From positions 2,189,486-2,253,485 of the forward strand of contig OZ241322.1 in the NCBI GenBank assembly GCA_965199715.1: a stretch of DNA of 64,000 nucleotides, written 5' to 3'. This DNA comes from Vicinamibacteria bacterium (GTDB lineage Bacteria; Acidobacteriota; Vicinamibacteria; Marinacidobacterales; Marinacidobacteraceae). Below, one piece after another: positions 27,927-41,533 of this stretch. The notes beneath the pieces were generated by a model. It ran no database searches and was not told the DNA's origin. It saw only the letters and a list, made by a program, of their open reading frames with translations. Made by a program: the position numbers and the translations under genes. Every line of letters begins with the position of its first letter. Within the stretch, counting starts at the first letter, position 1.

Positions 27927-29177
27927 GTGGCACGCGCACGACAGCTACGAGGGCCGCGCCCGCGGAAGGGGCGGATCAGCGACCGGCTGCTGGATGAGCT
28001 ACTGGCGGGGGAGGACCCGACCGAGGCCTTCCACGACGGGAAGCTGGTCGCCGAGTCGAAGAAGGCGCTCAGCGAGCGGATCCTCGGGGCCGAGATGGGC
28101 CCGCATCTGGACCGCAAGGCGGAGCGGGCGGCGGGGAACCACCGGAACGGGCACAACCGGAAGCGGGCGCTCGCGGGCGACGTGGAGCTGGATCTGGCGG
28201 CGCCCCGGGATCGCCACGGGACGTTCGAGCCGCAACTGGTGGAGAAGTGCGCCCGGCGGCTGCCGGGGTTCGACGAACAGGCGATCTCGATGTACGGGCG
28301 GGGGATGGCGACGCGGGAGATCCAGGGCCGCGTGGAGCAGTCGTACGGGATGAAGGCGTCGGCGGAGACGATCTCCGCGGCCACCGAAACGGTAGCGGAG
28401 GATGTCCGGGAGTGGCGCTCGCGCCCGCTGGAGGCGACCTGCGCGCTGGTGTTCTTCGACGCGCTGCGGGCGAAGATCCGGGACGGGGGCCTGGTGCGGA
28501 ACAAGGCGGCGTGCATGGCCATCGGGGTGACCTGCGGGGGCCGGAAGGAGGTTCTGGGGTTCTGGATCCAGGAGACGGAGGGGGCGAAGTTCCGGCTGGG
28601 GGTGATGAACGAGCTGAAGGGCCGGGGGGTCCGGGACGTGCTGATCGCGGTGGCGGACGGGCTGAAGGGCTTCCCGGAGGCGATCGAGGCGGCGTTCCCG
28701 CAGGCGCTCGTGCCGAAGTGCGTGGCGCGCCTGATCCGGCGGTCGCCGCGCTACGCGTCGCACAAGGAACGGCGGGAGCTGGCGGCGGCGCTGAAGACGA
28801 TCTGCCGCGCGGCGACGGAGGCGGCGGCGGAAGCGGCGCTGGACGCGGTGGAGGACGGGCCGTGGGGTCGGAAGCATCCGGCGATCCCGGCGATGTGGCG
28901 GCGTGCGTGGACGCAGGCGATCCCGTTCCTCGCGTTCTCGGAGCCGATCCGGCGGGCGATCTACACGACGAACGCGATCGAGAGCCGGAACAGTTCGGTG
29001 CGGCGTGCGGTGCGGACGCGGGGATGCTTCCCGCACGACCGTGCGGCGGCGAAGTTGATCTGCCTGGCGCTGCGGCGGGCGCAGGCGGCGTGGAAGCGGC
29101 CGCCGCGGTACTGGCGCGAGGCGCGGGCGGAGTTCGCGATCCGGTTCGGGGCGCGGTTCCAGCCGGATGACCCCTGA
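27927..29177 (+). CDS. IS256-family (Mutator-type) transposase
   Basis: 416 aa with hallmark IS256 transposase blocks (DRKAERAAGNHRNGHNRKRAL, DRHGTFEPQLVEK, DEQAISMYGRGMATREIQGRVEQSYGMKAS, VFFDALRAKIRDGGLVRNKAACMAIGVTCGGRKEVLGFW, DVLIAVADGLKGFPEAIEAAFP). GGGAGG RBS 8 nt before the GTG start. Confidence 0.9.
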   Translation: MARARQLRGPRPRKGRISDRLLDELLAGEDPTEAFHDGKLVAESKKALSERILGAEMGPHLDRKAERAAGNHRNGHNRKRALAGDVELDLAAPRDRHGTFEPQLVEKCARRLPGFDEQAISMYGRGMATREIQGRVEQSYGMKASAETISAATETVAEDVREWRSRPLEATCALVFFDALRAKIRDGGLVRNKAACMAIGVTCGGRKEVLGFWIQETEGAKFRLGVMNELKGRGVRDVLIAVADGLKGFPEAIEAAFPQALVPKCVARLIRRSPRYASHKERRELAAALKTICRAATEAAAEAALDAVEDGPWGRKHPAIPAMWRRAWTQAIPFLAFSEPIRRAIYTTNAIESRNSSVRRAVRTRGCFPHDRAAAKLICLALRRAQAAWKRPPRYWREARAEFAIRFGARFQPDDP

Positions 29178-29351: not shown

Positions 29352-29482
29352 TGATACCTCCGTTCAAGGATCTGCCCACCCGCGCGGCGGGAGTCCGCGA
29401 CGGCTACTCGCCAAGAACGCACGAACTGGGCCGACGCTACAAGGAGCGCTGTGACTTCGAATGCGGGTGCCGTGGGGTTCCG

Positions 29483-29734
29483 TTGACGAACGGGGACGCG
29501 AAACTCCTCGACTTGCACCACATCAACGGAGTGACGCAGGACAACAACTGGGCGAACCTCATGGCGCTATGCAAGCTGTGTCACGCGGGGCAGCCGCAGC
29601 ACGGCCGCCTGCAGGCGTCCGAGGAGGACGAACGTCGGATTCGCGAGCTGCGCAACCGCAAGAACGGGAATCGCGGCGAGGACGACCAACTCGGCCCGGC
29701 GGTGAGCGGACGCGGGGTAGGCTCCGCGCCGTGA
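29483..29734 (+). CDS. HNH endonuclease-domain protein, N-terminus apparently truncated or displaced by the IS256 insertion
   Basis: A complete HNH motif is present, but its first Cys pair lies upstream of the first canonical start: ...GVRDGYSPRTHELGRRYKERCDFECGCRGVPLTNGDAKLLDLHHINGVTQDNNWANLMALCKLCH. The frame is open back to the IS right IR at ~29352, with only CTG/ATA codons available. The track ORF begins at TTG 29483. Confidence 0.5.
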   Translation: MTNGDAKLLDLHHINGVTQDNNWANLMALCKLCHAGQPQHGRLQASEEDERRIRELRNRKNGNRGEDDQLGPAVSGRGVGSAP

Positions 29735-29769
29735 CCGTCTCCCCGGCCTCCGTCCTCGGCCGCCAGAGC

Positions 29770-30615
29770 ATGTGCGGGCGGCTCCTCGAGGTGCTCGTCA
29801 TCGCGCCGCAGGGGGCCATGTGGAGCCATCCCGCGGGCTACCGGGAACTCGGCTACCTGCATCCGCCCGAACCAGACTTGGCCGCCCGGCAGCATCGTGC
29901 GCTGCGCTCCGAACTGGCCGGGTTCGGCGCCAGGGTTCGCGAAGCCGCGCCGACGGGGCTGTCCGCCGACGCGGTGTATTGCCACGACGCCTCGTTCCCG
30001 ACGCCCCGGGGCATGGTGCTGATGCGCATGGGCAAGCCGGCGCGGGCCGCCGAGCCGGAGGCGCATCGGGCGCTCTACCGTGAAATGGACATTCCCGTGA
30101 TCGGCGCGATCGAGGCGCCGGGGGTGATGGAGGGCGGCGATCTCGTCTGGCTGGACGAGCGCACGGTGCTCGCCGGGGAGGGTTACCGGACCGACGCGGC
30201 GGGGATCGCGCAGCTTGCCGCGTTGCTCGCTCCCGACGGCGTGGAGGTGATCGCGTCGGCGCTGCCGCACGGGGACGGGCCGGCGTGCTGCCTCCACCTG
30301 ATGTCCCTCATCAGCGTGCTCGACTCGCGGACGATGGTCGCCGATCCGCGCTTTCTCGCCGTGCCCACGATGAAGCTGCTGGAGGATCGCCGGTTCCGGC
30401 TGATCCCGATCGTGGACGAGGAGCGGGAGACCATGGCTGCGAACGTGCTCGCGCTCGGCCACGGGGAGCTTCTCGCGATCGAGGCCAACGAGCGCACGAA
30501 CGAGCGGCTCGAGGGCGCCGGGTTCCGGGTCCGGACCTATCCCGGCTCGGAGATCAGCCAGAACGGTTCGGGCGGTCCCACCTGCCTCACGCGACCGATC
30601 CGGAGGGCGCAGTGA
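29770..30615 (+). CDS. DDAH / amidinotransferase-superfamily enzyme (dimethylarginine dimethylaminohydrolase / arginine-deiminase-like fold)
   Basis: ~281 aa. C-terminal catalytic Cys motif SEISQNGSGGPTCLTRPI is typical of the guanidino-group-modifying enzyme superfamily. The overall order of blocks resembles DDAH. An alternative GTG start at 29731 overlaps the HNH stop (GTGA). Confidence 0.7.
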   Translation: MCGRLLEVLVIAPQGAMWSHPAGYRELGYLHPPEPDLAARQHRALRSELAGFGARVREAAPTGLSADAVYCHDASFPTPRGMVLMRMGKPARAAEPEAHRALYREMDIPVIGAIEAPGVMEGGDLVWLDERTVLAGEGYRTDAAGIAQLAALLAPDGVEVIASALPHGDGPACCLHLMSLISVLDSRTMVADPRFLAVPTMKLLEDRRFRLIPIVDEERETMAANVLALGHGELLAIEANERTNERLEGAGFRVRTYPGSEISQNGSGGPTCLTRPIRRAQ

Positions 30616-30884
30616 AGCGGCGGAAGCTGGCGGGGTTCCTGACTTTCCTCGCGTTTCTCCTGCTCGTCGCGTACGTCGTCCGTTCCACCATGAGCATGGG
30701 CGGCTCCCGTTGCGAGGTCACGATGACGATGAGCGGTCGGACGGCCACGGTCGGGGCCCGGGGGGCGACGCCCGCCGACGCGACTCGGGCCGCGATCACC
30801 GGGGCCTGCGCCCGGATCGCCAACGGGCGCACCGAGAACATCCTCTGCCTCGACTCACCGCCGCTCGCCGTCTCCTGTCAGTGA
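30612..30884 (+). CDS. Small membrane-anchored Cys-containing protein (90 aa), hypothetical
   Basis: GTG overlaps the DDAH-like stop (GTGA). MKRRKLAGFLTFLAFLLLVAYVV TM anchor, then a soluble tail with 4 Cys. Its 3' end overlaps the convergent minus-strand ORF by ~30 nt. Confidence 0.4.
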   Translation: MKRRKLAGFLTFLAFLLLVAYVVRSTMSMGGSRCEVTMTMSGRTATVGARGATPADATRAAITGACARIANGRTENILCLDSPPLAVSCQ

Positions 30885-31314
30885 CGCGAGCGGCGTGACC
30901 GTTCCGTCGGGCCGCGCGACGAACGCCTCGGTTGGAGTCTTCCAGACCGCGCGCACCGCGAATCGCCAGCGCCGCGCCCGCGCGACCGTCCCCCGGTCGC
31001 CCGTGGGGGCCATGACCATGACGGCCGCGCGGTCCGGGCCGCGGATCGCGCTCGGCACGGTCACGAGGAACGGCCGCCCGGCCCGGTCCCGCAGCGCCGC
31101 CCGCACGTCGCTGCGCAGTTCGCCGGGACGCTCTTCCAGCCACGATCCGGCGGCGCGGGCGAGGGCGGTGGCTTCCCGGACGACCGCTTCCCGATCCCGG
31201 GCGGCGACGACGCGGCGATCCAGCATCCGCTCCGCCGCCGCGGCGTCGGCTTCGAGACCCTCGGCGATCCGCGCCAGCAGCAGGTGGGCGAGCCGCCGGG
31301 TCGCCGCGCTCACT
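30855..31314 (-). CDS. Hypothetical protein (~153 aa) translationally coupled to the AddAB-fusion gene
   Basis: GTG start overlaps the addAB-fusion stop (GAGTGAGCG = GTGA coupling). MSAATRRLAHLLLARIAEGLEADAAAAERMLDRRVVAARDREAVVREATALARAAGSW...PFLVTVPSAIRGPDRAAVMVMAPTGDRGTVARARRWRF... Not matched to a known family by eye. Confidence 0.4.
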
Positions 31315-34300
31315 CGCTCGCCGACGGCGGCAGCACCTTCAGCTTGTGGCGCTTCCAGTGGATCTCCGGCTGCGGCTTCTTGGCCGTCATCGCCGCCGCG
31401 CCCCACAGATCGCCCGGCAGCAGCTTCGCGAGGCCGCCCGCAGCGGTCGGCGCGCCGTCCTTCTTGAACCCGGTCACGCCGGAAAGCGTCAGGCTGCGGC
31501 GCGCCCGGGTCATCGCCACGTAGAGACAGCGTCGCTCCTCGGCGGCGCTCCGGCCCGCGTCCTGGACCTGCCAGTGGCTCGAGTCGCCGATCAGCGCGAT
31601 GCTCCAGTCCCCCTCGTCGCTCTCCTGGACCCGCAGCCCGGAGCCCCATCCGCCGATCCTCGCGTTCAGATCGACCGCCAGCACGTGGTCGTACTCCAGG
31701 CCCTTGGCGGCGTGGATGGTGAGCACCTGCACCGCTCCCGCCGCCCGCAGCGGCGCCTGGGTCGCGTCGTGGCCGTCGCCGCCCGCCGACTCGAGATGCC
31801 GGGCGGCGTCGGCGAACGTCGCGAAGCCGCTCCGCTCCACTCGCTGGACGTGGTGGAGCGCCTTCTCCACGTTCGCCTCCTGCTGGCGCCCCTCGAACGC
31901 CCCGCCGGTCGCCCGCACCCGGTCGAGATAGCCGGTCTCCTCGAGGATCCGCCGCAGCGCGAGCGACGGCGGCAGTTGGCGCGACAGCTTGATCCACGCC
32001 GGCGCGACCCGGCCGGCCTCCGCCAGCGGGCCGTCCGCTTCGATGCGCCCGTTCAGCAGGTCCGCGAACGGCGTCGCCGCCCCGTGATCCCGGGCGCGAA
32101 GCTCCGCCAGCGCGCCGGCGGGGATCGCGAAGAAGCGCGAGCGCAGCAGCTCGACCGCGCGCAGGTCGGACGACGGGCGGGCGAGGAACCGGCAGAGCCC
32201 GGTCAGGTCGAGCACTTCGGATGAGTCGAAGAACCCGGCTCCCTTGACGAGGTACGTGGGAACCCCGAGCCGCTCCACTGCGTCCCGGTAGAGCCCGAGC
32301 CGGGAGGCGGCGCGGGCGAGGATCGCGATGCGGTCGAGCGGAACCCCCCGGGCGGCGAGCGCCGCGATCCGGGCGGCGACCCGCCGCGCCGCTTCGTCGT
32401 GGTCCTGGGCGACCGCGACCGACAGCGGGATCTCCTCCGCCGGCCCCTCGTCCATCGGGCCGGCCTCTTCGGGGAAGCGGTCGTCGTCGTCGTAGCGGAA
32501 GCTCCAGTCGCGGTCGGCCTCGCGGTCGGCCTGCGCGATCGCGGCTGCCGTGTCGTTCACGAACGAGCGCAGCGGGCCGGTGGAGCGGAAGTTCCACCGG
32601 AGCGCGAGGCGGGGATGGGTCTTCGGGCGCATCCGCTCCCGGATCCAGTTCTCGGTGCGGTTCAGGATCTCGACCCGAGCGCTGCGGAAGCGGTAGATGG
32701 ACTGCTTGTGGTCGCCCACCACGAACAGCGTCGGCGCGCCCAGCCGGCCCCCGGTGACCCGGCGCACTTCCTCGGCGGCCAGCCCCTCGCCGCTCGTCCA
32801 CGGTTCGGCGATCGCCCGGAGCAGCTCCCACTGCGGGTCGCTCGTGTCCTGGAACTCGTCGAGAAGCAGGTGGTGGTAGCGGGACTCCAGCCGGAACCGG
32901 CTCTCGGCGAACTCCCCGGTCGCGCCCAGCAGATTCGTGGCGGCGACGGTGAGATCGTCGAAGTCCATGACCCCGCGGTCTTCCTTGAGCCGCTGGTACT
33001 CCGCCTCGACCGCCTGGAGCAGCCGCCAGACCGGGTCGAACGTCCGCTCGTTCAGCGAGTCCAGCCACTCGACGTTGAACTCCCTGAGCAGCGGCCGCAG
33101 CTTCCTGTACTCCGCCATGACCGGACGAAGGGGACCCTTGAGGTGCTTCGGAGCCGTCTTGAGGCCGAGCGGAATCCACTCCAGCAACGCTTCCCGGTCG
33201 AGCGCGTCGCGGGAGCCGGCCTGCTCCGACAGCTTCAGCGCGAGGCGCACCGGGGTCGGCAGCTTGCCGTCGTAGCCCGCGAGAATCCGCCGCGCGTCGG
33301 CCTCGACCCCGCGGAACCCGTCGCGCAGCGCCGGCCGGGGCCGGGGAGCCCCTCCGGCCGCCGCCCGGCTCTCGAAGGTGCGCCGCCAGGTGAGCCGGTT
33401 CTGCAAGTAACCCGCCGCCACCCCGTCCAGCCGGGCGAGGCTCTTGCCGAGCAGCGGCAGTTCCGCGAGCAGCTTGCGGTCGAAGCCGGTCGCCCCGGTG
33501 AGCACCCGGCCGATGGCCTCGGCCTGCACGACCGGCATCTCGCGCTCGTCCAGCACTTCCGCGCCGGGGGCCACGCCGGCGTCCAACGGGAACTCGCGGA
33601 TCAGCCCGAGGTTGAAGGCGTCGAGCGTCGAGACCTGCACCTCGCCGAGATCGGGGCGGCGGGTCCACTCCTCGCGCATCTCCGGCTGCGCGAGCCGGGC
33701 CACGATCCGGTCCTTCATTTCCGCGGCGGCCTTGCGGGTGAAGGTGAGCGCGAGGACGTTGCGGGGCGGGACCCCGGCGCGGATCAGGTTCACGTACCGC
33801 TCGGTGAGCACCGTCGTCTTGCCGGTGCCGGCGGACGCGGCGAGCACTGCGTGGCGCCTCGGGTCGGCGGCCGCCCGGCGGGCCGCGTGGTCGCTCGGCG
33901 TGAACGCGACCGGGGTCCGGGGCGGGGCCTGGGGCGCCGGCGCCCCAGGGACGAGCGTCCGCGCCGGCTCCGGCTCGTCGGGGAGGTCGGGGCGCAGCGG
34001 CAGCGGGCGGTCGAACGGGCGCAGCCGCGCCGGGAACTCCCCGGCGGCGAGCCCGTCGCGGACCTCCCGGATGCGCTTGTCGATCTCCCCGGCGCCGTCG
34101 TCGCCCACCCACGTGCGGTCCTTGAAGAAGGGAACCACGAACGAGTCCGCGCCGACCAGCCGGGCGTAGAGCCGGGCCTGCAGGCGCGCCGCGTCCTTGC
34201 CGCGCGACGAGCCCGACTTGAGCTCGACGACCCGCAGCCCGTCCGGGGTCCGGTCCACCCGATCCACTTTGCCCCGGACGTGCAGCGCGGGGAGCGACCC

Positions 34301-36625
34301 GGTCGCCGGCTCGACGATCCCGTCCAGCTCGCCTTCGACCTGGACCGGCTGCGCGGGGCCGCGCTCCGCCTCCTCGCGCAGGTACCACTCCAGCGCCGAC
34401 GGATGCGAGTCCCCGCCGAACAACCACAGCTCCTCGGCGGCGGAAGCGTCCTCGCCCATGCCGGGGGCGATCGACGAGCGGAAGCGTCGCCGGTAGAACT
34501 CGAGCGCGTCGTCGATCGTCGCTTCGGTGAGCGGCCCGAAGCGGCGGAAGAACTCGGGCGCGGCTTCCAGCAGCTTGTGGACGCGGTCGCCCCGGGCGAT
34601 CGCGGAGCCGAAGTCGTTCAGCGTCTCTTCCCGGGGGAGCCGCAGCACCCGGTCGAGAAAGAACTGCGCCGGGTTCGCCGCGTACAGCGTCAGCGCCGAG
34701 GGCGACACCCAACGACCGAGGTCCACCGCCGAGGGGGCCGTCCGCTCGAGGCTGCGCGGCAGCGGGACCGCGGCCGGGTCGGGGATCCGTTCGGGAAGGG
34801 AGACCGGCGCGCGCTCCTCCGGGTTCGCCCCGAGCGCCTCGCCGAGGCTCGCGAAGATCGGGGATTCGCCGGCGGGGAAGCCGTCCTCGAGCTCGGCCCG
34901 AGCGAAGCCCGCCGCCTTGCGGGGAAGCGTCGCGAACGCGCGCAGCAGGCGCCGCTCCCGCCGCCGCGCCTCCGAGAGTCGCTTGCGGGTCGCGTCCTCC
35001 AGAACCCTCGTCGGAAGGAAGATGTTCCCGGCGCGGGGGCCGGGCCAGTCGGCGTCGCCGACCCCCAGCAGCACGACGCAGTCGTAGTCGCCGAAGGGGG
35101 CGTCCTCGGCCTGGATCAGGTGGACGCCGTCGCGTCCTCGATACCGGACCGTCCGCTGGCGCCGCAACTGGCGGCGGACGCGGTCCCGGAACCGGGCCGG
35201 CGTTCCGACCGGAGTCGCGGGCAGCGCGGGATCCGCCGCCCGCCGCAGCGCGTCCATGGCCGGCTCCGGCCCGCCGGGAAAGCAGTCCTCGACGAAGCCG
35301 ACGAAGCACTCCACCGCCTCGTGGAAGGGCGTTTCCGGGTTCTGGATCGGCGCGAGCCGGCGGGCGTGCTCGGCGAGCCGGGCGAGAACGCGCGCAGCGA
35401 CCCGCAGTTCCCGCTCCCGGCGTTCGTCGCCTTCCGGCGGTTCGACGAGCTTCCCGAGGTTCGCCGGATCGTGAGTGTCGCGCACGTCCTCGTAGGCCAG
35501 GCGCGGCTCGGCGACGTCGGCGAGCCGCGCCGGGGCGTTCCCGAGCGCCTGGTCGCGAAAGAACGGGCTCCGCAGGAGCGCGAACCCGTTCGAGAGGCGG
35601 CCCGGAGCCTCGGCGAAGGCCAGCGCGTCGTCGAGCGCCGCCGGCCACGGCTCCTCGGCGAGCGACGGCTGGAAGTCGGTCTGGAACGGGATCCCCGCGG
35701 CGGCGAGATCGTCCGCGTACGCCGCCGGGCGCCGCGCCGCGACCGCGCAGCGCTCGTACGAACCGAAGCCCGCGAGCATCGCGGCGGCCGCGCGGGTCTC
35801 GCCGGCGCGGTCGGTCGTCCGGAAGAGGATGGATCCGTCGCCGGGGACGAACAGGCGCGGCGCCGGGGCCGCGACCGAATCGGCGCGGACCTCGTCGGCG
35901 GTCCAGCCCGGCGGGAGCGCGGGCGCCGCCTCGTCCTCCAGCAGCAGGAAGTCGAGCCCGCCGACGATCGTCGCGAGGATCTCCGCGTCGGCGATCCCGA
36001 CGGCGTCCCCGCCGCCGACGCGGACCCGGGACCACGGGGCCTCGGGCGGCCGGGCCAGCAACCGCCGCCGCGCCAGGTCGAGATCGCAGCGGCCCGACGT
36101 CTCGAGCCCCTCGACGTAGCCCCGGTGCGCGGACTCCAGCCAGCCGGTCAACCGCAGCAGCCGTTCCGCCCCCTCGTCGGTCCCCCGGGCCTCTTCGAAG
36201 GTCCGCCGGGCGCGCTCCAGCAGCGCGTGGAACGCCGGCCGGTCCGGCGCGATCGGGCGGTCGCGCGCCTGCTCGTCGAAAAGGCGCAGCAGCGGCCCGG
36301 CTAGGCGCAGCGGATTGCCCTTCGGCGCCCCCGGATCGTCCGCCGCGGCGAGCACCGCGCTCTCCATGAGCAGCGAGCGTTCGAGCGGCGTGGCGAGGGT
36401 TCCGGGCGGGTCGGCGCGCAGCAGCAGCTCGGCGAGAGCCTCCGCTGCGGTCCGAACCTGCGGAAGCTCGGCGGCCGGGCGGTCGGGGGCGAGCAGCCGG
36501 TCGCGCAACGCTCGTTCGAGCGCCCGGCTCGCGCCCGACGACGGAGTCAGGATCAGGCCCGAGGCGTCCCCGGCGAGCCGCTCCCGCAGCGTCCGCCAGT
36601 CCCGACAGCGGACGATCCGGATCAC
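31310..36625 (-). CDS. Fused AddB-like (inactive helicase + PD-(D/E)xK RecB nuclease) and AddA/UvrD-like helicase, single 1771-aa polypeptide
   Basis: Residues ~1-880 have no Walker A but carry the RecB nuclease motif (GKVDRVDRTPDGLRVVELKSGSS). Residues ~890-1771 are a UvrD/AddA helicase: Walker A AVLAASAGTGKTTVLTERY, motif II LLLDEFQDTSDPQWELL, VGDHKQSIYRFR, and motif VI region RRCLYVAMTRARRSLTL near the C-terminus. No C-terminal nuclease domain on the helicase part. Confidence 0.85.
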   Translation of the reverse strand: MIRIVRCRDWRTLRERLAGDASGLILTPSSGASRALERALRDRLLAPDRPAAELPQVRTAAEALAELLLRADPPGTLATPLERSLLMESAVLAAADDPGAPKGNPLRLAGPLLRLFDEQARDRPIAPDRPAFHALLERARRTFEEARGTDEGAERLLRLTGWLESAHRGYVEGLETSGRCDLDLARRRLLARPPEAPWSRVRVGGGDAVGIADAEILATIVGGLDFLLLEDEAAPALPPGWTADEVRADSVAAPAPRLFVPGDGSILFRTTDRAGETRAAAAMLAGFGSYERCAVAARRPAAYADDLAAAGIPFQTDFQPSLAEEPWPAALDDALAFAEAPGRLSNGFALLRSPFFRDQALGNAPARLADVAEPRLAYEDVRDTHDPANLGKLVEPPEGDERRERELRVAARVLARLAEHARRLAPIQNPETPFHEAVECFVGFVEDCFPGGPEPAMDALRRAADPALPATPVGTPARFRDRVRRQLRRQRTVRYRGRDGVHLIQAEDAPFGDYDCVVLLGVGDADWPGPRAGNIFLPTRVLEDATRKRLSEARRRERRLLRAFATLPRKAAGFARAELEDGFPAGESPIFASLGEALGANPEERAPVSLPERIPDPAAVPLPRSLERTAPSAVDLGRWVSPSALTLYAANPAQFFLDRVLRLPREETLNDFGSAIARGDRVHKLLEAAPEFFRRFGPLTEATIDDALEFYRRRFRSSIAPGMGEDASAAEELWLFGGDSHPSALEWYLREEAERGPAQPVQVEGELDGIVEPATGSLPALHVRGKVDRVDRTPDGLRVVELKSGSSRGKDAARLQARLYARLVGADSFVVPFFKDRTWVGDDGAGEIDKRIREVRDGLAAGEFPARLRPFDRPLPLRPDLPDEPEPARTLVPGAPAPQAPPRTPVAFTPSDHAARRAAADPRRHAVLAASAGTGKTTVLTERYVNLIRAGVPPRNVLALTFTRKAAAEMKDRIVARLAQPEMREEWTRRPDLGEVQVSTLDAFNLGLIREFPLDAGVAPGAEVLDEREMPVVQAEAIGRVLTGATGFDRKLLAELPLLGKSLARLDGVAAGYLQNRLTWRRTFESRAAAGGAPRPRPALRDGFRGVEADARRILAGYDGKLPTPVRLALKLSEQAGSRDALDREALLEWIPLGLKTAPKHLKGPLRPVMAEYRKLRPLLREFNVEWLDSLNERTFDPVWRLLQAVEAEYQRLKEDRGVMDFDDLTVAATNLLGATGEFAESRFRLESRYHHLLLDEFQDTSDPQWELLRAIAEPWTSGEGLAAEEVRRVTGGRLGAPTLFVVGDHKQSIYRFRSARVEILNRTENWIRERMRPKTHPRLALRWNFRSTGPLRSFVNDTAAAIAQADREADRDWSFRYDDDDRFPEEAGPMDEGPAEEIPLSVAVAQDHDEAARRVAARIAALAARGVPLDRIAILARAASRLGLYRDAVERLGVPTYLVKGAGFFDSSEVLDLTGLCRFLARPSSDLRAVELLRSRFFAIPAGALAELRARDHGAATPFADLLNGRIEADGPLAEAGRVAPAWIKLSRQLPPSLALRRILEETGYLDRVRATGGAFEGRQQEANVEKALHHVQRVERSGFATFADAARHLESAGGDGHDATQAPLRAAGAVQVLTIHAAKGLEYDHVLAVDLNARIGGWGSGLRVQESDEGDWSIALIGDSSHWQVQDAGRSAAEERRCLYVAMTRARRSLTLSGVTGFKKDGAPTAAGGLAKLLPGDLWGAAAMTAKKPQPEIHWKRHKLKVLPPSASE

Positions 36626-36626
36626 G

Positions 36627-36660
36627 CCGGGAGCCTAAGCCGTTTTCGGTAGGCTCCCGG
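36627..36660. promoter_or_regulatory. Perfect 10-bp inverted repeat (CCGGGAGCCT-N14-AGGCTCCCGG) filling the whole 36-bp divergent intergenic region
   Basis: Read directly in sequence between the addAB-fusion start (minus) and the nagZ-bla fusion ATG (plus). The spacer AAGCCGTTTTCGGT is itself near-palindromic. Candidate shared operator or structured leader. Confidence 0.35.
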
Positions 36661-36662
36661 AC

Positions 36663-39497
36663 ATGTTCCGGCGGACGCTTCTCGCGCTGGGGCTTCTCGC
36701 CGGCGGCTGCGGCGAGGAGAGCGCGGCCCGGCGGACCCTCGAGCGGATGGACCTCGAGGAGCGCGTCGGCCAGCTCGTGATGCCGCGGGCGCCGGCGAGC
36801 TTCCGGCACGACGCGGATCCCGAGTGGCGGGAGCTCCTGGATCTCGCCGCCTCCGGCCGAATCGGCGGGGTCGTCGTCTTCGCGGGGACGCCCGAAGGCA
36901 CCCGCGACGTGACCCGGGCGCTCGCCGCCGCTTCCCCCGTCGCGCCGCTCGTCGCCGCCGACTACGAGTGGGGAACGGCGATGCGCACCGAGGGCGGCCT
37001 GCGCTTCCCGCCGGCGCTCCAGGCGGGGGCCGAGCCGGATCCGGACGCGGCGTACCGGCAGGGCGCGATCATCGCGAGGGAGGCGCGGGCCGTCGGCGTG
37101 CACCTCGTGCTGGCCCCGGTGCTGGACGTGCTCCAGTCGCCGGAGAGCGAGGTCATCGGGATCCGCTCCTACGGGGCCGATCCGGCGACCGTCGGCGCGC
37201 TCGGGGCGGCGCTGATCCGGGGGGTGGAGGAGAACGGCGCGCTCGCGACCGCGAAGCACTTCCCCGGCCACGGCGGCACCGCGACCGACAGCCACCACCG
37301 GCTGGCGCAGGTTCCCGCTTCCCGCGAGCATCTCGAACGCCACGACCTCGCGCCCTTCCGCGAGGCGGTCGCCGCCGGGGTCTCGGCGGTGATGCCGGGC
37401 CACCTCGCGGTGCCGGCGCTCGACGGCCGGGCCGACCGACCCGCGATCCTCTCGCCCGAGATCCTCGGGGGTCTGCTGCGCGAGGACATGGGGTTCGCCG
37501 GGCTCGTGGTGAGCGACGCGCTCGAGATGGAGGGGGCGCGCGGCGGCCGGTTCGACGGCGAGGTCGCGGTCGAGGCGGTGGCCGCAGGCGTGGACGTGGT
37601 CCTCGTTCCGAAGGATCCGCTCGTCGCGTTCCAGTCGCTCGTCCGGGGCGTCCGGGAGGGGCGGCTCTCCGAGGAGCGCGTCGCGGAGGCGGCGCTGCGG
37701 GTGCTGGAGGCCAAGGAGCGGCTCGGCCTGCTCGGCGAGCCGGACGCCCCCGACCTGCACCGCTCGTTCGCCGACCCCGCCGACCGGGAGTGGGTCGAGT
37801 CGCTCTTCGGGCGCGGCCTGACGCTCGTGCGCGATCCCGGCGACCTGCTGCCGCTGTCCAGTCCGGCGCTTCTCGTCGAGATCTCGCGGGAGGGGCCGTA
37901 CGAGCCGGACCGCCGCCCGCTGCGCGAGGAGCTTCGGCGGCGCGGCGCCTGGGCGGGCCGCATCCCGACGCTCGCGCACGGAGCGCTCCCGCCCGGCGCG
38001 CTCGAGGAGCGGGCGGCCCGGGCCGACGCGATCCTGCTCGCCGACTATCGCCGGTACGGATACGGCGTTCCGGACGGATTGCTTCAGGCGCTCGCGCCGT
38101 TCGGCGATCGGCTCGTCGCGGTCTCGTTCGGGAACCCGGTCACGCTCTCGGGGCTCCCCGAGGAGGCGGCTATCCTGCTCGCCTGGGACGGCGCCGAGGC
38201 GAGCCAGCGCGCCGCCGCCCGAGGGCTCTTCGGCGAGGCGGACGTGAGCGGGCGGTTGCCGATCCCGTTCGAGTCCCACGCTCTCGGCGAGGGACAGGAC
38301 CAGCCGGCGGTCCGGCAACGGCTCCGGCGAGCGGACCCCGAGGAGGTCGGCATGAGCGCATCGGGCCTCGACGCCGTGCGGCGGGTCGTCCTCGACGCGA
38401 TCGCCGACGGAACCACCCCCGGCGCCAGCGCGATCGTGGTCCGGCGTGGCCGGATCGTGCTTCAGGAGGGCTTCGGGCGGCAGACGTGGGACGCCGGCTC
38501 GCCTGAGATCGCTCCCGACACGATCTACGACCTCGCCTCGCTGACCAAGGTCGTCGGCACGACGACGCTGGTGATGATGCTGGTCGAGGACGGGCTGCTC
38601 GACGTCTCGCTTCCGGTGAGCGCCTACCTCCCCGAGTTCCTCGACCGCGCCCCGTCGGAAGCGGAGCGCGCCCGGCGCGTTCCGGTCACGGTCGCGGACC
38701 TGCTCGCCCACTCGTCGGGGCTGCCCGCGTGGATCCAGTTCTATCTCGAGTTCGATCCCGAGGCTCGCGGGCTTCCGCTCGAGGACGCCCGCCGGATGGT
38801 GCTGGACCGGATCCTCGGCGCGACCTCCGACTACGAGCCGCGCACCGACGCCGTGTATTCGGACAACGGGCTTCTGCTGCTTGGCGAGATCCTCGAGCGG
38901 GTCTCGGGGTCGCGCCTCGACGTCCTGGCGCAGGACCGGATCTTCGGGCCGCTCGGGATGACGGACACCGGCTATCGCCCGGCGGCGGAGCTCCTGCCCC
39001 GGATCGCGCCCACCGAGGACAACCCGTGGCGGGGCCATGTCGTCCACGGGCAGGTCCACGACGAGAACACGGTCGTTCTGGGCGAAGTCGCGGCGCACGC
39101 CGGGCTCTTCAGCACCACCGGCGACCTCGCGACGTTCCTCCAGATGCTCCTCAACGGCGGCGCGATGCGCGGCGAGCGCCTGCTCCGCGCCGACACGATC
39201 GCCCGGTTCACCCGCCGCGCCGGCCTCGTCCCCGGCAGCAGCCGGGCGCTCGGCTGGGACACGCCGTCGGGCGACCGTTCGTCGGCGGGCGGCTTCTTCT
39301 CGGCCTCGTCGTTCGGCCACACCGGCTTCACCGGCACGTCGATCTGGGTGGACCCCGAGCGCGAGCTGTTCGCCGTCCTGCTCACGAACCGGGTGCACCC
39401 GACCCGCGAGAACGACGGAATCTTCCGGCTTCGGCCGTCGTTTCACGACGCGGTCGCCCGCGCCCTCACGGACCACGATCCCGTTCGGCGCGAGTAG
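36663..39497 (+). CDS. Lipoprotein fusing a GH3 beta-N-acetylhexosaminidase (NagZ-like) domain to a class-C beta-lactamase / DD-peptidase (AmpH-like serine hydrolase) domain
   Basis: Lipobox MFRRTLLALGLLAGGCGEE. GH3 motifs (KHFPGHGGTATDSHH, VVSDALEMEG). The C-terminal half has the SxxK active site (ASLTKVVGTT), YSDNG (YxN) and HTGFTGTS (KTG-like) motifs. Confidence 0.85.
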   Translation: MFRRTLLALGLLAGGCGEESAARRTLERMDLEERVGQLVMPRAPASFRHDADPEWRELLDLAASGRIGGVVVFAGTPEGTRDVTRALAAASPVAPLVAADYEWGTAMRTEGGLRFPPALQAGAEPDPDAAYRQGAIIAREARAVGVHLVLAPVLDVLQSPESEVIGIRSYGADPATVGALGAALIRGVEENGALATAKHFPGHGGTATDSHHRLAQVPASREHLERHDLAPFREAVAAGVSAVMPGHLAVPALDGRADRPAILSPEILGGLLREDMGFAGLVVSDALEMEGARGGRFDGEVAVEAVAAGVDVVLVPKDPLVAFQSLVRGVREGRLSEERVAEAALRVLEAKERLGLLGEPDAPDLHRSFADPADREWVESLFGRGLTLVRDPGDLLPLSSPALLVEISREGPYEPDRRPLREELRRRGAWAGRIPTLAHGALPPGALEERAARADAILLADYRRYGYGVPDGLLQALAPFGDRLVAVSFGNPVTLSGLPEEAAILLAWDGAEASQRAAARGLFGEADVSGRLPIPFESHALGEGQDQPAVRQRLRRADPEEVGMSASGLDAVRRVVLDAIADGTTPGASAIVVRRGRIVLQEGFGRQTWDAGSPEIAPDTIYDLASLTKVVGTTTLVMMLVEDGLLDVSLPVSAYLPEFLDRAPSEAERARRVPVTVADLLAHSSGLPAWIQFYLEFDPEARGLPLEDARRMVLDRILGATSDYEPRTDAVYSDNGLLLLGEILERVSGSRLDVLAQDRIFGPLGMTDTGYRPAAELLPRIAPTEDNPWRGHVVHGQVHDENTVVLGEVAAHAGLFSTTGDLATFLQMLLNGGAMRGERLLRADTIARFTRRAGLVPGSSRALGWDTPSGDRSSAGGFFSASSFGHTGFTGTSIWVDPERELFAVLLTNRVHPTRENDGIFRLRPSFHDAVARALTDHDPVRRE

Positions 39498-39639
39498 CGG
39501 CGGGCGTTTCGACTCTCGCGGCTCCAGCGGGGACGCCGCCCTGAGCGCCGGAAACGCATGATCCTCTGCCCTCGAATGGACTTCCCGCGCCGCGACCGGC
39601 GTCGATGCGGCTCCGCGCGAACCTCGGAGGAGACCAGTC

Positions 39640-41533
39640 ATGAGACATGCGCGCACGTTCCTGGCCGCCTTGGCGGCGCTCGCCGGCGGCGGTAACGGAC
39701 CGTCGGTCGCCCCCACCCCGACGGCGCCCCCGGCGCGGCATCGGACTTCGAGGCGCGGGGCGGCCCCGGCTACGTCGAGTGGACGTGGAGCGGGACGTCC
39801 AGCGACGGCTGGCAGGTCGAGTACAGCGTCGGCGCGGACTTCGAGCCGGGCGCGAACGCGGAGGTCGTCACAAGCCCGAGCTTCCGCATCGACGGCCTGA
39901 AAGAGGACGACGCGGCGCACGCCCGGGTGCGCGTCGCGGACGGCGCGGTCTCCGACGTCGTGCGCGCGACGGCGTTGAAGCCGCCCGAGCCGATCGCGGC
40001 TCCGGTGCACTTTCAGGTCACGGACGACACGGTGACGTGGACCGCGGTGGAGAACGCGTTGAGCTACGAGGTGCTGGTCCGGACCGAGGGCGGAACGTGG
40101 CTCGTCGTGGCGTGCGGCGGGGACGGGACCGTCACTCGGTGCGCCGCGATCGGGCTGGCGTGGGGCGATTCCTTCGAGACGCGGGTGCGGGCGAATCCCG
40201 ATCCTGCGGACGAGGCCCAAGCCTCGAGCACGTGGACTGCCACCCCCGCGGCGACCACGGAGGAGGAAGCAGGCGGCGCAAGCTTCCGGCAGGGAGAAGA
40301 GGAAGACACGAGTCCGCTGAAGGCGCCGCACCAGTTCAATTTCACGACTTCCGACTTGAGCCGGACGACCTTCCTGGTCACGTAGAACTGGAGCCGGGGC
40401 GCGGAGACGTACGAGCTGCGATACCGCGCCAGCGGCGCCGCGGAATGGGTGAGCGGCGCCTGCGCCCATCCCACGTCGGAGGCGTGCGTGGTGACGGGCC
40501 TGACCGACGGGAACGACCACGAAGAGCAGGTCAGCTCGATTCCGCCGGCCTCGTCCTCGCGGCAGCCGAGCGAATGGGGCGAGAGCTCCGTCACGACCCC
40601 CGAGGACACGGGCCCGGTCCAGCTCGCCAAGCCGACTCGGGTTCTCGCCTCGACCACGAGCGCCACGAGCGTGTGGTTCGTCTGGAACCCCGTGGATGCG
40701 GCCGCGATCCACGAGGTGCAGGGAAAGCGCGTCAGCGCGTCCTCGTGGGACGACATGACCTGCACCGGGGACTCCCGCGACACCCCGTGCAATGTCACGG
40801 GACTCTCCCTCCCGCCAGCAGTACGACTTCCGGGTGCGGGGGGCCCGATCCGAACGACGCGAACCTGTCCATCGGGGCGTGGAGCGACACGCTGACCGCC
40901 ACGACCAAGGGCGGCGGAACGGGGACCGGCGCGCTTCCCGCGCCCACCGGCCTGACCGGTTCGTGGAACGTCGCCGTCCCGAGGTCCCTCTTCCTCGCGT
41001 GGAAGCCGGTGGAGAACGCGGTCACGTACGACGTGCAGCACACGCAGATCGGAGTGACCGGCTGCATCAACGAATGCTCCGGGACGACCCGGATGGGCTG
41101 CACGATCGACGGTCCGGCGCGGGCGGCGCTGCGCGAGATCCGCGTGCGGGCGCACCCGGCCTCGAGCGACACGGACCGTTCCACGAGCGACTGGTCCGCG
41201 GGGATCTTCCTTTCGACTCCCTCGGATCCGGGCCCTCCGCGCCTCGGGACTCCGACCGGCTTCAACTCGTCCAACACGGACGCGACCACCGTCTCGCTCA
41301 CCTGGACTCCGGCGTTCGACATCGGTCAGCGGACCTACGAGGTGCGGCTCAAGGCCAGCGGCGGCGACTGGGAGGCCTCGGGTTGCGGCGCGACCGCCAG
41401 CTTCTTCTGCGACGTCACCGGCCTGACCCCCGCGACGGAATACTCGGCGCGCGTCCGGTCGGTTCCGAATTCCGACGAGTTCCGCACGAGCGACTGGAGC
41501 ACGGAAATCAGCTTCACGACATTGAGGCGGTGA
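39640..41533 (+). pseudogene. Tandem fibronectin-type-III-repeat lipoprotein disrupted by at least 3 frameshifts and 1 in-frame amber codon
   Basis: Signal peptide MRHARTFLAALAALAGGGNG. FN3-like modules are readable only by hopping across ORFs 39640..39900, 39927..40385, 40449..40895, 40792..41541 and 39647..41533 (e.g. VTDDTVTWTAVENALSYEVLVRTEGG, NWSRGAETYELRYRASG, PCNVTGLS...YDFRVRG, TYEVRLKASGGDWEASGCGATASFFCDVTGLTPATEYSARVRS). TAG at ~40384 sits inside a module. The frameshifts coincide with C5 and G6-7 runs. Confidence 0.6.

What the first reader, a model, noticed from the sequence alone, without database searches (positions are those of the whole stretch)
30855..36625. Single-polypeptide AddB-AddA fusion (inactive helicase - RecB nuclease - UvrD helicase) with a coupled downstream ORF of unknown function
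Canonical AddAB/RecBCD/AdnAB machines are hetero-oligomers. Here one uninterrupted 1771-aa ORF carries an N-terminal AddB-like module (no Walker A, RecB nuclease motif GKVDRVDRTPDGLRVVELKSG around residue 850) followed directly by a complete UvrD/AddA helicase (Walker A GTGKTT, DEFQD, motif VI). The ORF ends without the second nuclease domain that AddA normally has. A 153-aa ORF starts on the fusion's stop codon (GTGA) and may be a dedicated accessory subunit. This is a permuted, minimal end-resection architecture. If real it implies one nuclease and one motor per polypeptide.
Basis: partly seen in the sequence, partly recalled or inferred. Interest (0 to 1): 0.55.

Follow-up and report, generated by a model that had tools for sequence, protein, structure and literature searches.

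The report
Fused AddB-AddA enzyme with detached dead nuclease
This marine acidobacterium makes its DNA-break-processing enzyme AddAB as one fused 1771-residue protein and keeps AddA's second nuclease domain as a separate, catalytically dead 152-residue protein, which is a natural test of what that domain does besides cutting DNA.

Summary
Window 31310..36625 (-) is one 1771-aa gene. It carries an AddB-like scaffold, an intact PD-(D/E)XK nuclease (GKVDRVD...ELKSG, residues 785-805), a linker, and a complete UvrD/AddA motor (Walker A 930-937, DEFQD 1256-1260). Sixteen homologue clusters (59-64% identity, several on multi-Mb contigs) share the fusion and the same C-terminal end, so it is not an assembly artefact.

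The coupled ORF is 30855..31313 (-), 152 aa, and its GTG overlaps the TGA stop. It is AddA's missing nuclease domain, cut off and inactivated:
- hhalign 93.8% (E 2e-7) to the AddA nuclease domain of relatives, and 0.2% to the AddB nuclease.
- The catalytic D, E and K residues are all replaced.

Relatives show the steps. Vicinamibacterales have separate addB (Fe-S type) and full addA. A sister group has addB, nuclease-less addA and the small ORF. This clade has the fusion plus the small ORF.

I infer that resection cuts the 5' strand only and that the pseudo-nuclease is a structural subunit. This is a new variant of a known kind, of moderate interest.

The parts
31310..36625 (-). addBA fusion gene, 1771 aa (GTG start, TGA stop)
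   Evidence: ORF list and translation. One coding frame throughout by codon-position GC. Pfam PDDEXK_1, UvrD-helicase and UvrD_C. Sixteen full-length homologue clusters at 59-64% identity.
34766..36625 (-). AddB-like helicase-fold scaffold without an ATP site (residues 1 to about 620; LILTPSSGA in place of a Walker A)
34046..34708 (-). AddB-type PD-(D/E)XK nuclease domain (residues 640-860), catalytically intact, without the four Fe-S cysteines
   Evidence: Pfam PF12705, E 8.5e-21. D788, E801, K803 and Q816..Y820 are invariant in 17 sequences. In the alignment with separate Vicinamibacterales AddB proteins, their Cys of YLxCPF is Asn (NPAQFF, 34658..34675) and their CxxCx5C is missing.
34211..34273 (-). 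Nuclease active-site motif GKVDRVDRTPDGLRVVELKSG (residues 785-805)
   Evidence: invariant D/E/K.
33911..34045 (-). AddB-AddA junction and Pro-rich linker (residues 861-905). The former addB stop and addA start lie near residue 895-905.
   Evidence: Comparison with the unfused relatives L085 and L087: AddB ends ...DLP..P-rich*, and AddA begins (V/M)..PRTPAPAFVPTDHRAREAAADPRR, which matches window PRTPVAFTPSDHAARRAAADPRR at 902 onward.
31436..33910 (-). AddA SF1A (UvrD-like) helicase motor, residues 906-1730. Walker A at 33815..33838, DEFQD at 32846..32860.
   Evidence: Pfam UvrD-helicase E 7e-49 and UvrD_C E 6e-24. Best NCBIfam hit addA_alphas, E 3.6e-72. Best PDB sequence hit AddA 3u44_A, E 1.4e-40. 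Motifs.
31313..31435 (-). Conserved C-terminal tail (...GLAKLLPGDLW...EIHWKRHKLKVLPPSASE*), which corresponds to the start of the linker that precedes the nuclease domain in full-length AddA
   Evidence: The same end is found in all fused homologues. It aligns to positions 4-50 of an HMM of the last 260 aa of full-length relatives' AddA.
31310..31313 (-). GTGA start/stop overlap (translational coupling site)
   Evidence: Sequence. An NTGA overlap (GTG in 4, TTG in 2) is present in 6 of 6 fused-clade loci. In L083 a stop in the small ORF's frame 10 nt upstream leaves this GTG as the only possible start. The unfused L091 has the same 4-nt overlap.
30855..31313 (-). Small ORF, 152 aa, pI 11.5: detached, catalytically dead AddA nuclease domain (pseudo-nuclease subunit)

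Best explanation
This is an AddAB-type double-strand-break end-processing enzyme of a marine Vicinamibacteria lineage (closest named genome: Ca. Marinacidobacterium). It has been remodelled in three steps.

1. The AddB nuclease domain lost its four Fe-S cysteines.
2. AddA's C-terminal nuclease domain was cut off as a separate gene and lost its catalytic Asp, Glu and Lys.
3. addB and addA, adjacent and in the order B then A, fused into one 1771-aa reading frame.

Shown here:
- The fusion is real and conserved.
- Its N-terminal half is an AddB homologue with an intact nuclease site and no ATP site.
- Its C-terminal half is a complete SF1A motor that stops before the nuclease domain.
- The 152-aa ORF overlapping the stop codon (GTGA) is specifically derived from the AddA nuclease domain, is predicted to fold well, lacks the catalytic residues, and occurs only beside nuclease-less addA genes.

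Inferred:
- The small protein is made in step with the fusion by termination-reinitiation at GTGA.
- It re-binds the fusion at the place the AddA nuclease domain occupies in B. subtilis AddAB, as a structural part of the exit path for the 3' strand.
- The enzyme unwinds DNA from a broken end with the AddA motor and cuts only the 5' strand with the AddB nuclease. This leaves a 3' tail for RecA without needing Chi to switch off cutting of the 3' strand. Engineered AddA nuclease-dead mutants of B. subtilis AddAB behave this way (Yeeles and Dillingham 2007, from my own knowledge).
For: Fusion is real:
- One coding frame throughout.
- Sixteen homologue clusters of 1784-1879 aa at 59-64% identity with the same domains and the same C-terminal end.
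- Invariant residues run through the junction.
- Relatives sit on 2.9-4.2 Mb contigs.

AddB identity:
- Orthologous separate genes in Vicinamibacterales hit addB_alphas at E 1e-14 to 5e-23.
- Profile-profile probability 98.3% to the N-terminal region of alphaproteobacterial AddB.
- PDDEXK_1 with invariant D788, E801 and K803.

AddA identity: best family addA_alphas, E 3.6e-72, and best PDB hit AddA, E 1.4e-40.

Small ORF is a dead AddA nuclease domain. It starts where the nuclease domain would start in full-length relatives, so the order is collinear.

Coupling: an NTGA overlap in 6 of 6 fused loci and in the unfused L091.

Evolutionary series, all in the same neighbourhood (GH3/beta-lactamase gene upstream; 90-aa ORF and ADI gene downstream):
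- Two genes with a full AddA.
- Three genes, addB, nuclease-less addA and the small ORF, in L085/L086, L087 and L091.
- The fused form.

Mechanistic background: each AddAB nuclease domain cuts one strand (PMC3064778).
Against: - No experiment or complex prediction shows that the small protein binds the fusion.
- About 17 related Vicinamibacterales loci have a nuclease-less AddA with no small ORF at all. The domain is therefore dispensable in some lineages.
- The small ORF evolves faster than the fusion (49-57% against 59-64% identity). Its codon-position GC signal in the window is ambiguous.
- Sequence-only evidence for its AddA origin is moderate: hmmsearch E about 0.009, and 93.8% by hhalign only after adding distant members.
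- The fusion scores far below the curated NCBIfam cut-offs: addA_alphas 244 bits against 860.75, and no addB_alphas hit for the window protein itself.
- In B. subtilis the AddB Fe-S cluster is essential for binding DNA ends (PMC3064778), and it is absent here. Alphaproteobacterial AddB proteins also lack it.
- Cutting of the 5' strand only, and independence from Chi, are inferred and were not tested.
Confidence: 0.7

Rival explanations
1. The small ORF is a decaying remnant of the AddA nuclease domain with no present function. The working enzyme is the fusion alone.
For: All catalytic residues are gone. It evolves faster than the fusion. About 17 related lineages have a nuclease-less AddA and no small ORF.
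Against: The ORF stays open and in the same place in at least nine fused or unfused lineages, down to roughly 30-50% identity. It shows more third-position and synonymous change than replacement change per site. It has a confidently predicted compact fold (pLDDT 93). The start/stop overlap is conserved. It has its own invariant residues, such as RRLAH, P..PS and RRYR.
Confidence: 0.1
2. The small ORF is not a separate protein. A programmed -1 ribosomal frameshift near the end of the fusion gene adds it as a C-terminal domain, giving a full-length AddB-AddA-pseudonuclease polypeptide.
For: The small ORF is in the same relative frame (-1) in all six fused loci, and that frame is open far upstream in the window.
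Against: In L083 that frame has a stop 10 nt before the fusion's stop, which leaves no room for a slippery site. In L085 and L087 the small ORF is separated from addA by 78 and 37 nt. An NTG start sits exactly on the stop in 6 of 6 fused loci. The long open frame in the window is a high-GC artefact.
Confidence: 0.04
3. The fusion or the split is an assembly or sequencing artefact (a collapsed stop or frameshift) in a high-GC region.
For: The region is 72-77% GC. Frameshifted AddA genes that look like errors do occur in some metagenome-assembled genomes (L051, L057), and some alphaproteobacterial 'fusions' have junk-like junctions (P0069, P0085).
Against: The same architecture, the same C-terminal end and the same small-ORF frame recur in 16 or more independently assembled homologues at 59-64% identity. 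Residues through the junction are invariant.
Confidence: 0.02
4. The locus is not a repair enzyme but a helicase-nuclease defence system, or has been recruited for defence, with the small protein as a sensor or regulator.
For: The helicase part matches PADLOC GajB and DRT-associated UvrD-like helicase models. Restriction-modification or toxin-antitoxin genes lie nearby in some relatives (N6_N4_Mtase, HNH, AbiEii and PIN in L081, L083 and L084).
Against: The PADLOC matches are generic UvrD homology and weaker than the AddA match (153 against 244 bits). The small ORF has no PADLOC hit. The gene sits in a stable chromosomal neighbourhood (GH3/beta-lactamase, ADI, amidohydrolase, NUDIX-MBL) shared across the clade. 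It is collinear with, and appears orthologous to, the addB-addA pair of Vicinamibacterales. The defence-type neighbours differ from genome to genome.
Confidence: 0.05

Closest known systems
Bacillus subtilis AddAB (PDB 3U44, 3U4Q, 4CEH)
   Different: Here the two subunits are one polypeptide. AddB has no Walker A and no Fe-S cluster cysteines. The AddA nuclease domain is a separate polypeptide without catalytic residues. Only one strand can be cut.
Alphaproteobacterial-type AddAB (NCBIfam TIGR02786 addB_alphas and TIGR02784 addA_alphas)
   Same: These are the best-scoring families for both halves. AddB lacks a Walker A and the Fe-S cysteines. The gene order is addB then addA. Occasional full-length AddB-AddA fusions exist: P0099 (2166 aa) is clean, while P0085 and P0069 have doubtful junctions.
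   Different: The alphaproteobacterial proteins, fused or not, keep an active AddA nuclease (GxxDRL...DYKT). The window protein is far below the curated cut-offs of both families. Here the fusion is fixed across a whole clade and comes with a detached dead nuclease domain.
Vicinamibacterales addB-addA operons (loci L002-L055)
   Same: Collinear with the window protein over its full length at about 35% identity, with the same gene order.
   Different: They have two separate genes. AddB keeps the four-Cys Fe-S motif (YLxCPF...CxxCx5CRKDY). AddA either keeps an active nuclease domain, or has lost it in about 17 loci with no small ORF left behind.
RecBCD: RecC's inactivated nuclease-like domain and RecB's tethered nuclease domain
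   Different: In RecBCD the dead domain is part of RecC and the single active nuclease belongs to the motor subunit RecB. Here the motor's own nuclease domain is the dead one and is not covalently attached at all. There is no RecD-like second motor.
Mycobacterial AdnAB
   Same: A helicase-nuclease heterodimer related to AddAB. The AdnA and AdnB nuclease domains are among the structural matches. Nuclease-dead AdnAB still supports recombination (PMC5314763, by its title).
   Different: AdnA and AdnB both carry helicase motifs and active nucleases. The N-terminal half here has no Walker A.

Membership tests
AddA (AddAB helicase-nuclease subunit A) | Complete SF1A UvrD-like helicase motifs (Walker A, DExx, motifs III, V and VI) | tested here: met
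   Pfam UvrD-helicase E 7e-49 and UvrD_C E 6e-24. GTGKT 933-937, DEFQD 1256-1260, GDHKQSIYRFR 1304-1314, VAMTRA 1703-1708.
AddA (AddAB helicase-nuclease subunit A) | C-terminal RecB-family nuclease domain with catalytic Asp and (D/E)xK on the same polypeptide | tested here: not met
   The ORF ends before the domain. The homologous domain is the separate 152-aa ORF, and its catalytic D/E/K are replaced.
AddA (AddAB helicase-nuclease subunit A) | Score above the curated NCBIfam equivalog cut-off (TIGR02784 or TIGR02785) | tested here: not met
   addA_alphas 244.2 bits against a cut-off of 860.75; addA_Gpos 178.2 against 707.65. These are still the two best-scoring families.
AddB (AddAB subunit B) | N-terminal SF1 helicase-like fold that is not an active motor | tested here: met
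AddB (AddAB subunit B) | C-terminal PD-(D/E)XK nuclease domain with intact catalytic residues | tested here: met
   PF12705 E 8.5e-21. D788, E801, K803, Q816 and Y820 are invariant in 17 sequences and align with the GKADRID / DYK / QLPxY motifs of separate AddB proteins.
AddB (AddAB subunit B) | Four-cysteine Fe-S cluster flanking the nuclease domain (Firmicutes-type and Vicinamibacterales AddB) | tested here: not met
   All four Cys are absent in the fused clade and in the three-gene relatives. This feature is not universal: alphaproteobacterial AddB regions also lack it.
AddB (AddAB subunit B) | Score above the curated NCBIfam cut-off (TIGR02786 or TIGR02773) | tested here: not met
   The window's N-terminal 900 aa gives no addB_alphas hit at E <= 1. 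Separate orthologues in Vicinamibacterales give 52-81 bits against a cut-off of 486.5.
AddAB system | addB and addA encoded together as partners | tested here: met
   They are fused here. They are adjacent in the order B then A in unfused relatives.
AddAB system | Dual-nuclease processing of both strands, regulated by Chi | not testable with these tools
   Only one catalytically competent nuclease site is encoded. Activity and Chi response need biochemistry.
AdnAB | Both subunits carry helicase ATPase motifs and an active nuclease | tested here: not met
   No Walker A in the N-terminal half, and only one active nuclease site.
RecBCD | RecB with an active tethered nuclease, RecC, and a RecD 5'-3' motor | tested here: not met
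   recB models score lower than AddA models (140.6 against 244.2 bits). There is no RecD-like gene in the operon or its flanks.
Gabija and other UvrD-helicase defence systems (PADLOC) | A specific match to a defence-system helicase together with its partner genes | tested here: not met
   Only generic UvrD-level matches (GajB up to 111 bits, RTasHel 153 bits). No GajA or reverse transcriptase partner, and the small ORF has no hit.

The most novel reading that the evidence does not exclude
The detached pseudo-nuclease is not a fixed structural subunit. It is a free, exchangeable factor: a trans-acting version of the RecB or AddA nuclease 'swing' domain, which docks on the fusion and hands the 3' tail to RecA or otherwise gates it. 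On this reading the regulatory, non-catalytic role of the nuclease domain has become a separate protein, in an enzyme that cuts only the 5' strand and no longer needs Chi.
Probability: 0.2. Interest if true: 0.7.

Novelty: new variant of a known kind. Interest (0 to 1): 0.5.

Why it matters
AddAB and RecBCD are the textbook bacterial machines for processing broken DNA ends. An open question is what their nuclease domains do apart from cutting: guiding the 3' strand, responding to Chi, or loading RecA.

This lineage offers a natural dissection of that question:
- The motor's nuclease domain is catalytically dead and physically separate, yet it has been kept and co-translated over a long evolutionary span.
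- Sister lineages have dropped the domain altogether.
- Other sister lineages keep it active and attached.

The non-catalytic role can therefore be tested with three natural versions of the same enzyme.

The locus also shows that an obligate heterodimer can become a single chain simply by losing a stop codon. It shows too that the Fe-S cluster, essential for DNA end binding in Bacillus AddB, has been lost in a second lineage besides alphaproteobacterial-type AddB. A single-chain resection enzyme with one nuclease could be a convenient tool or structural target.

Tried and rejected
- **The 3285-aa ORF (30855..40712, minus strand).** I considered whether it could be real. Its translation is Arg/Gly/Pro-rich, and codon-position GC shows that plus-strand genes occupy 36663-41533. 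Only its last 152 codons are coding.
- **Frameshift joining of the small ORF to the fusion.** Rejected.
- **Direct HMM search of the small-ORF family against AddA proteins.** It gave one weak but collinear hit (E 0.009). The first hhalign with 9 close sequences gave only 19-28% probability. The result became convincing only after adding distant family members.
- **Word-indexed homologue search with the N-terminal 900 aa.** It returned only 3 hits, so it gave no depth for AddB. I used loci, NCBIfam on orthologues and profile-profile comparison instead.
- **NCBIfam on the window's N-terminal half alone.** Only sub-threshold noise.
- **Profile search of PDB sequences.** It did not recover AddB by sequence. 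The fold search did.
- **Scan of 1.84 billion representatives with the small-ORF profile.** It found no AddA protein with an attached dead domain, only 11 hits, all 150-245 aa (P0119 matches only through a read-through tail).
- **A small ORF downstream of the nuclease-less AddA genes of Vicinamibacterales.** None found.
- **PADLOC.** Generic helicase hits only.
- **Promoter and terminator scan.** Nothing useful.
- **Literature.** I found no paper on natural AddB-AddA fusions or on this clade. Cromie 2009 and Yeeles 2009 are not held.
- **L089.** A truncated or rearranged addB copy, uninformative.

Full report
**1. The observation**

The window is 69-77% GC, so long open frames occur by chance. 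One example is a 3285-aa frame at 30855..40712 on the minus strand, which overlaps the finding. Its translation is Arg/Gly/Pro-rich nonsense apart from the last 152 codons.

The 1771-codon ORF at 31310..36625 (minus strand) is different.
- Codon-position GC stays at about 0.53 / 0.93 / 0.80 in one minus-strand phase from start to stop.
- Upstream of 36660 the pattern switches to plus-strand genes: a GH3/beta-lactamase fusion at 36663..39497 and an fn3 protein at 39647..41533.
- Downstream of 30620 it switches to a convergent plus-strand ADI/DDAH-like gene at 29461..30615.

Pfam places PDDEXK_1 at 640-827, UvrD-helicase at 914-1325 and UvrD_C at 1630-1715. The nuclease motif is at 785-805 rather than about 850. 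The only Walker A is at 930-937, and DEFQD is at 1256-1260.

The small ORF begins with GTG at 31313, overlapping the TGA stop (GTGA). It ends at 30855 and is 152 aa.

**2. The fusion is real**

The identical protein is on record on a 2.35-Mb contig. Sixteen further clusters of 1784-1879 aa share 59-64% identity and the same Pfam domains. They share the same C-terminal end...EIxWKRHRLAVLPPS..*. Many residues are invariant straight through the junction region.

Relatives were recovered on contigs of 2.9-4.2 Mb from independent samples, and one on a 362-kb contig. A collapsed stop or frameshift in one assembly cannot explain this.

The closest named genome is Candidatus Marinacidobacterium (Acidobacteriota; Vicinamibacteria; Ca. 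Marinacidobacterales).

**3. What the two halves are**

The C-terminal half scores best against addA_alphas (E 3.6e-72). Among solved structures it scores best against B. subtilis AddA (3u44_A, E 1.4e-40).

The N-terminal half alone gives only noise against NCBIfam. Three other lines show that it is AddB.
- The genome scan found dozens of Vicinamibacterales loci collinear with the whole 1771-aa protein at about 35% identity. In these the same sequence is split into two ORFs, an upstream gene of about 1000 aa and a downstream helicase gene. Those upstream genes hit addB_alphas at E 1e-14 to 5e-23, and also addB_Gpos, rexB and Cas4.
- I built a profile of the region before the nuclease domain, using the fused clade and its relatives. 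It aligns over 588 columns with the AddB region of proteins that pass the addB_alphas cut-off (hhalign 98.3%, E 1.8e-14).

The nuclease active site is intact. D788, E801, K803 and Q816..Y820 are invariant and align with the catalytic motifs of the separate AddB proteins.

**4. The Fe-S cluster is gone**

Separate Vicinamibacterales AddB proteins carry the classical four cysteines: YLxCPF before the nuclease domain and CxxCx5CRKDY at the C-terminus. In the fused clade the first Cys is Asn (NPAQFF, residues 651-656). The C-terminal three are replaced by ...PFDWPLAIRPDLP..., which runs on into the Pro-rich linker.

In B. subtilis this cluster is reported as essential for binding DNA ends (PMC3064778). 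The loss is not without precedent, because the AddB regions of alphaproteobacterial proteins also lack these cysteines.

**5. The small ORF is AddA's nuclease domain, detached and dead**

The ORF is conserved directly after the fusion gene in five further fused-clade loci (L001, L081-L084), always in the same relative frame. Four further clusters were found by homologue search. Between loci, third-position and synonymous changes outnumber what a non-coding region would show.

Pfam, NCBIfam and PADLOC find nothing in it.

At sequence level:
- The tail of the fusion aligns to positions 4-50 of an HMM of the last 260 aa of full-length relatives' AddA.
- The small ORF then aligns from about position 109 onward. 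The order is therefore collinear with an intact AddA.
- With 17 family members, hhalign against the AddA nuclease domain of Vicinamibacterales gives 93.8% probability, E 1.8e-7, over 145 columns. Against the AddB nuclease domain it gives 0.2%.

In that alignment the catalytic positions of the full-length domains are all replaced:
- the Asp of RGxIDC falls at the conserved VPS / IPT segment of the small ORF;
- the E-x-K of VLEFKTG falls at VLVMAPxG;
- the Gln of QLxxY is Arg, while the Tyr is kept.

The protein is very basic (pI 11.5, 27 Arg).

**6. Coupling, not frameshifting**

In 6 of 6 fused loci an NTG codon (GTG in four, TTG in two) overlaps the TGA stop of the fusion. In L083 the small ORF's frame has a stop 10 nt upstream, so that GTG is the only possible start and there is no room for a slippery site. 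In unfused relatives the small ORF either overlaps addA by the same 4 nt (L091) or follows it after 37-78 nt (L087, L085). It is therefore a separate polypeptide, probably made by termination-reinitiation.

**7. The evolutionary series**

A profile search of 1.84 billion representative proteins found only 11 matches. Ten belong to this family and are stand-alone proteins of 150-245 aa; the eleventh (P0119) matches only through a read-through tail. None is part of a long AddA.

The genomic contexts of the distant members are informative. L085/L086, L087 and L091 carry three genes:
- addB of 1018-1134 aa, already without the Fe-S cysteines;
- addA of 900-947 aa without a nuclease domain;
- the small ORF.

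They sit in the same neighbourhood as the window locus, with the GH3/beta-lactamase gene divergent upstream and the 90-aa ORF, ADI gene and amidohydrolase downstream.

In L085 addB and addA are in the same frame, separated only by TGA and one codon. Loss of that stop would produce exactly the fusion seen here.

The most economical order of events is therefore:
1. addB (Fe-S type) plus full addA, as in most Vicinamibacterales.
2. Loss of the Fe-S cysteines, then splitting and inactivation of the AddA nuclease domain, giving the three-gene form.
3. Fusion of addB and addA, giving this clade.

Separately, about 17 of roughly 55 Vicinamibacterales loci have a truncated AddA with no nuclease domain in any frame and no small ORF.

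**8. How it most likely works**

What is shown is the gene content: one polypeptide with an AddB scaffold, an active AddB-type nuclease and an AddA motor, plus a co-encoded pseudo-nuclease.

What follows from established knowledge of AddAB:
- AddA translocates 3'-5' on one strand.
- Each nuclease domain cuts one strand. In Bacillus, AddA cuts the 3' strand and AddB cuts the 5' strand (PMC3064778; Yeeles and Dillingham 2007, from my own knowledge).

What is inferred: with the AddA nuclease dead, only the 5' strand is degraded and the 3' tail is always spared, so Chi-dependent attenuation is unnecessary.

The long retention of the dead domain suggests a structural role, such as forming the exit path for the 3' strand or an interaction surface. 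There are two precedents:
- RecC keeps an inactivated nuclease fold as part of a strand channel (PMC1185551).
- RecB's nuclease domain is joined to its motor only by a tether that mediates control by Chi (PMC6326792).

I put about 0.9 on the identity of the parts, about 0.85 on the AddA-nuclease origin and inactivity of the small protein, and about 0.5-0.55 on physical re-association and on 5'-only resection.

**9. Comparison and novelty**

The system works like AddAB and descends from it. It fails several family-defining tests:
- no nuclease on the AddA part;
- no Fe-S cluster in the AddB part;
- scores far below the curated cut-offs of the NCBIfam models.

Fusion alone is not unique. P0099 (2166 aa) is a clean alphaproteobacterial AddB-AddA fusion that passes both the addB_alphas and addA_alphas cut-offs and keeps an active nuclease. 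P0085 and P0069 pass the cut-offs too, but their junctions look frameshifted.

I found no description in the searchable literature of the combination seen here:
- a fusion fixed across a clade;
- a single active nuclease;
- a detached and conserved pseudo-nuclease.

I class it as a new variant of a known kind.

**10. Caveats**

- There are no read-level data, no expression data and no prediction of the complex.
- The small-ORF model rests on a 5-sequence alignment.
- The N-terminal model has a low pTM (0.37).
- The counts of nuclease-less AddA genes among metagenome-assembled genomes may include some sequencing frameshifts (for example L051 and L057).

Noticed in passing
window 30855..40712 (-): A 3285-aa open frame spans the fusion gene and two plus-strand genes. 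It is a high-GC artefact (Arg/Gly/Pro-rich translation, wrong codon-position GC). Only its last 152 codons, the small ORF, are coding.
   Followed up: yes
window 30612..30884 (+): A conserved 90-aa ORF with a hydrophobic N-terminal segment (VKRRKLAGFLTFLAFLLLVAYVV...). Its GTG start overlaps the TGA stop of the upstream ADI/DDAH-like gene, giving a second GTGA coupling. Its 3' end overlaps the 3' end of the small pseudo-nuclease ORF convergently by 30 nt (30855-30884). A 90-95-aa ORF sits at the same place in L081, L083-L085, L087 and L091. Its function is unknown. Its antisense read-through explains the odd ...GCSPSGRPxSGRRPR tails on several database versions of the small protein (P0104, P0105, P0107, P0111, P0119).
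   Followed up: partly
window 27927..29177 (+): An IS256/Mutator-family transposase (PF00872, E 2e-100) lies between the ADI-like gene and the NUDIX/metallo-beta-lactamase gene. In relatives (L081-L084, L087, L091) this stretch holds an amidohydrolase gene and no transposase.
   Followed up: no
window 36663..39497 (+): A 944-aa fusion of glycoside hydrolase family 3 and a beta-lactamase-family domain is transcribed divergently from the addBA gene. Only 37 bp separate the two predicted starts. This neighbour is conserved in all fused and three-gene relatives.
   Followed up: partly
L010, L011, L012, L013, L025, L026, L029-L032, L038, L039, L044, L048, L052, L070 (AddA ORFs): About 17 Vicinamibacterales-type loci have an AddA that stops just after the helicase (853-954 residues after the Walker A, against about 1050-1100). 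No nuclease domain is found in any frame and there is no small ORF downstream. Loss of the AddA nuclease is therefore frequent in this class.
   Followed up: partly
L051 11107..11715 and L057 11257..11865: The AddA nuclease domain lies in a separate 202-aa open frame that overlaps the end of the helicase frame. This is either a sequencing frameshift in these metagenome-assembled genomes or an independent, still catalytic-looking split.
   Followed up: no
P0085, P0069, P0099, P0066 (proteins): AddB-AddA fusion proteins of 2100-2170 aa occur outside this clade. P0099 is a clean alphaproteobacterial fusion. P0085 (Methyloceanibacter methanicus, named 'hypothetical protein') and P0069 have Arg-rich junk-like stretches at the junction that suggest frameshifts. 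P0066 looks like an actinobacterial-type fusion.
   Followed up: partly
L089 3614..6244: An addB-like gene 60% identical to the window's N-terminal half breaks off right after the VDRVD nuclease motif and runs into unrelated sequence. This is a truncated copy or a chimeric contig.
   Followed up: partly
L081 14449..15817, L083 2381..3029, L084 1..1334: Restriction-modification and toxin-antitoxin genes (N6_N4 methyltransferase, HNH, MmeI_N, PIN/MazE, AbiEii) lie near the addBA locus in several relatives. They differ from genome to genome.
   Followed up: no
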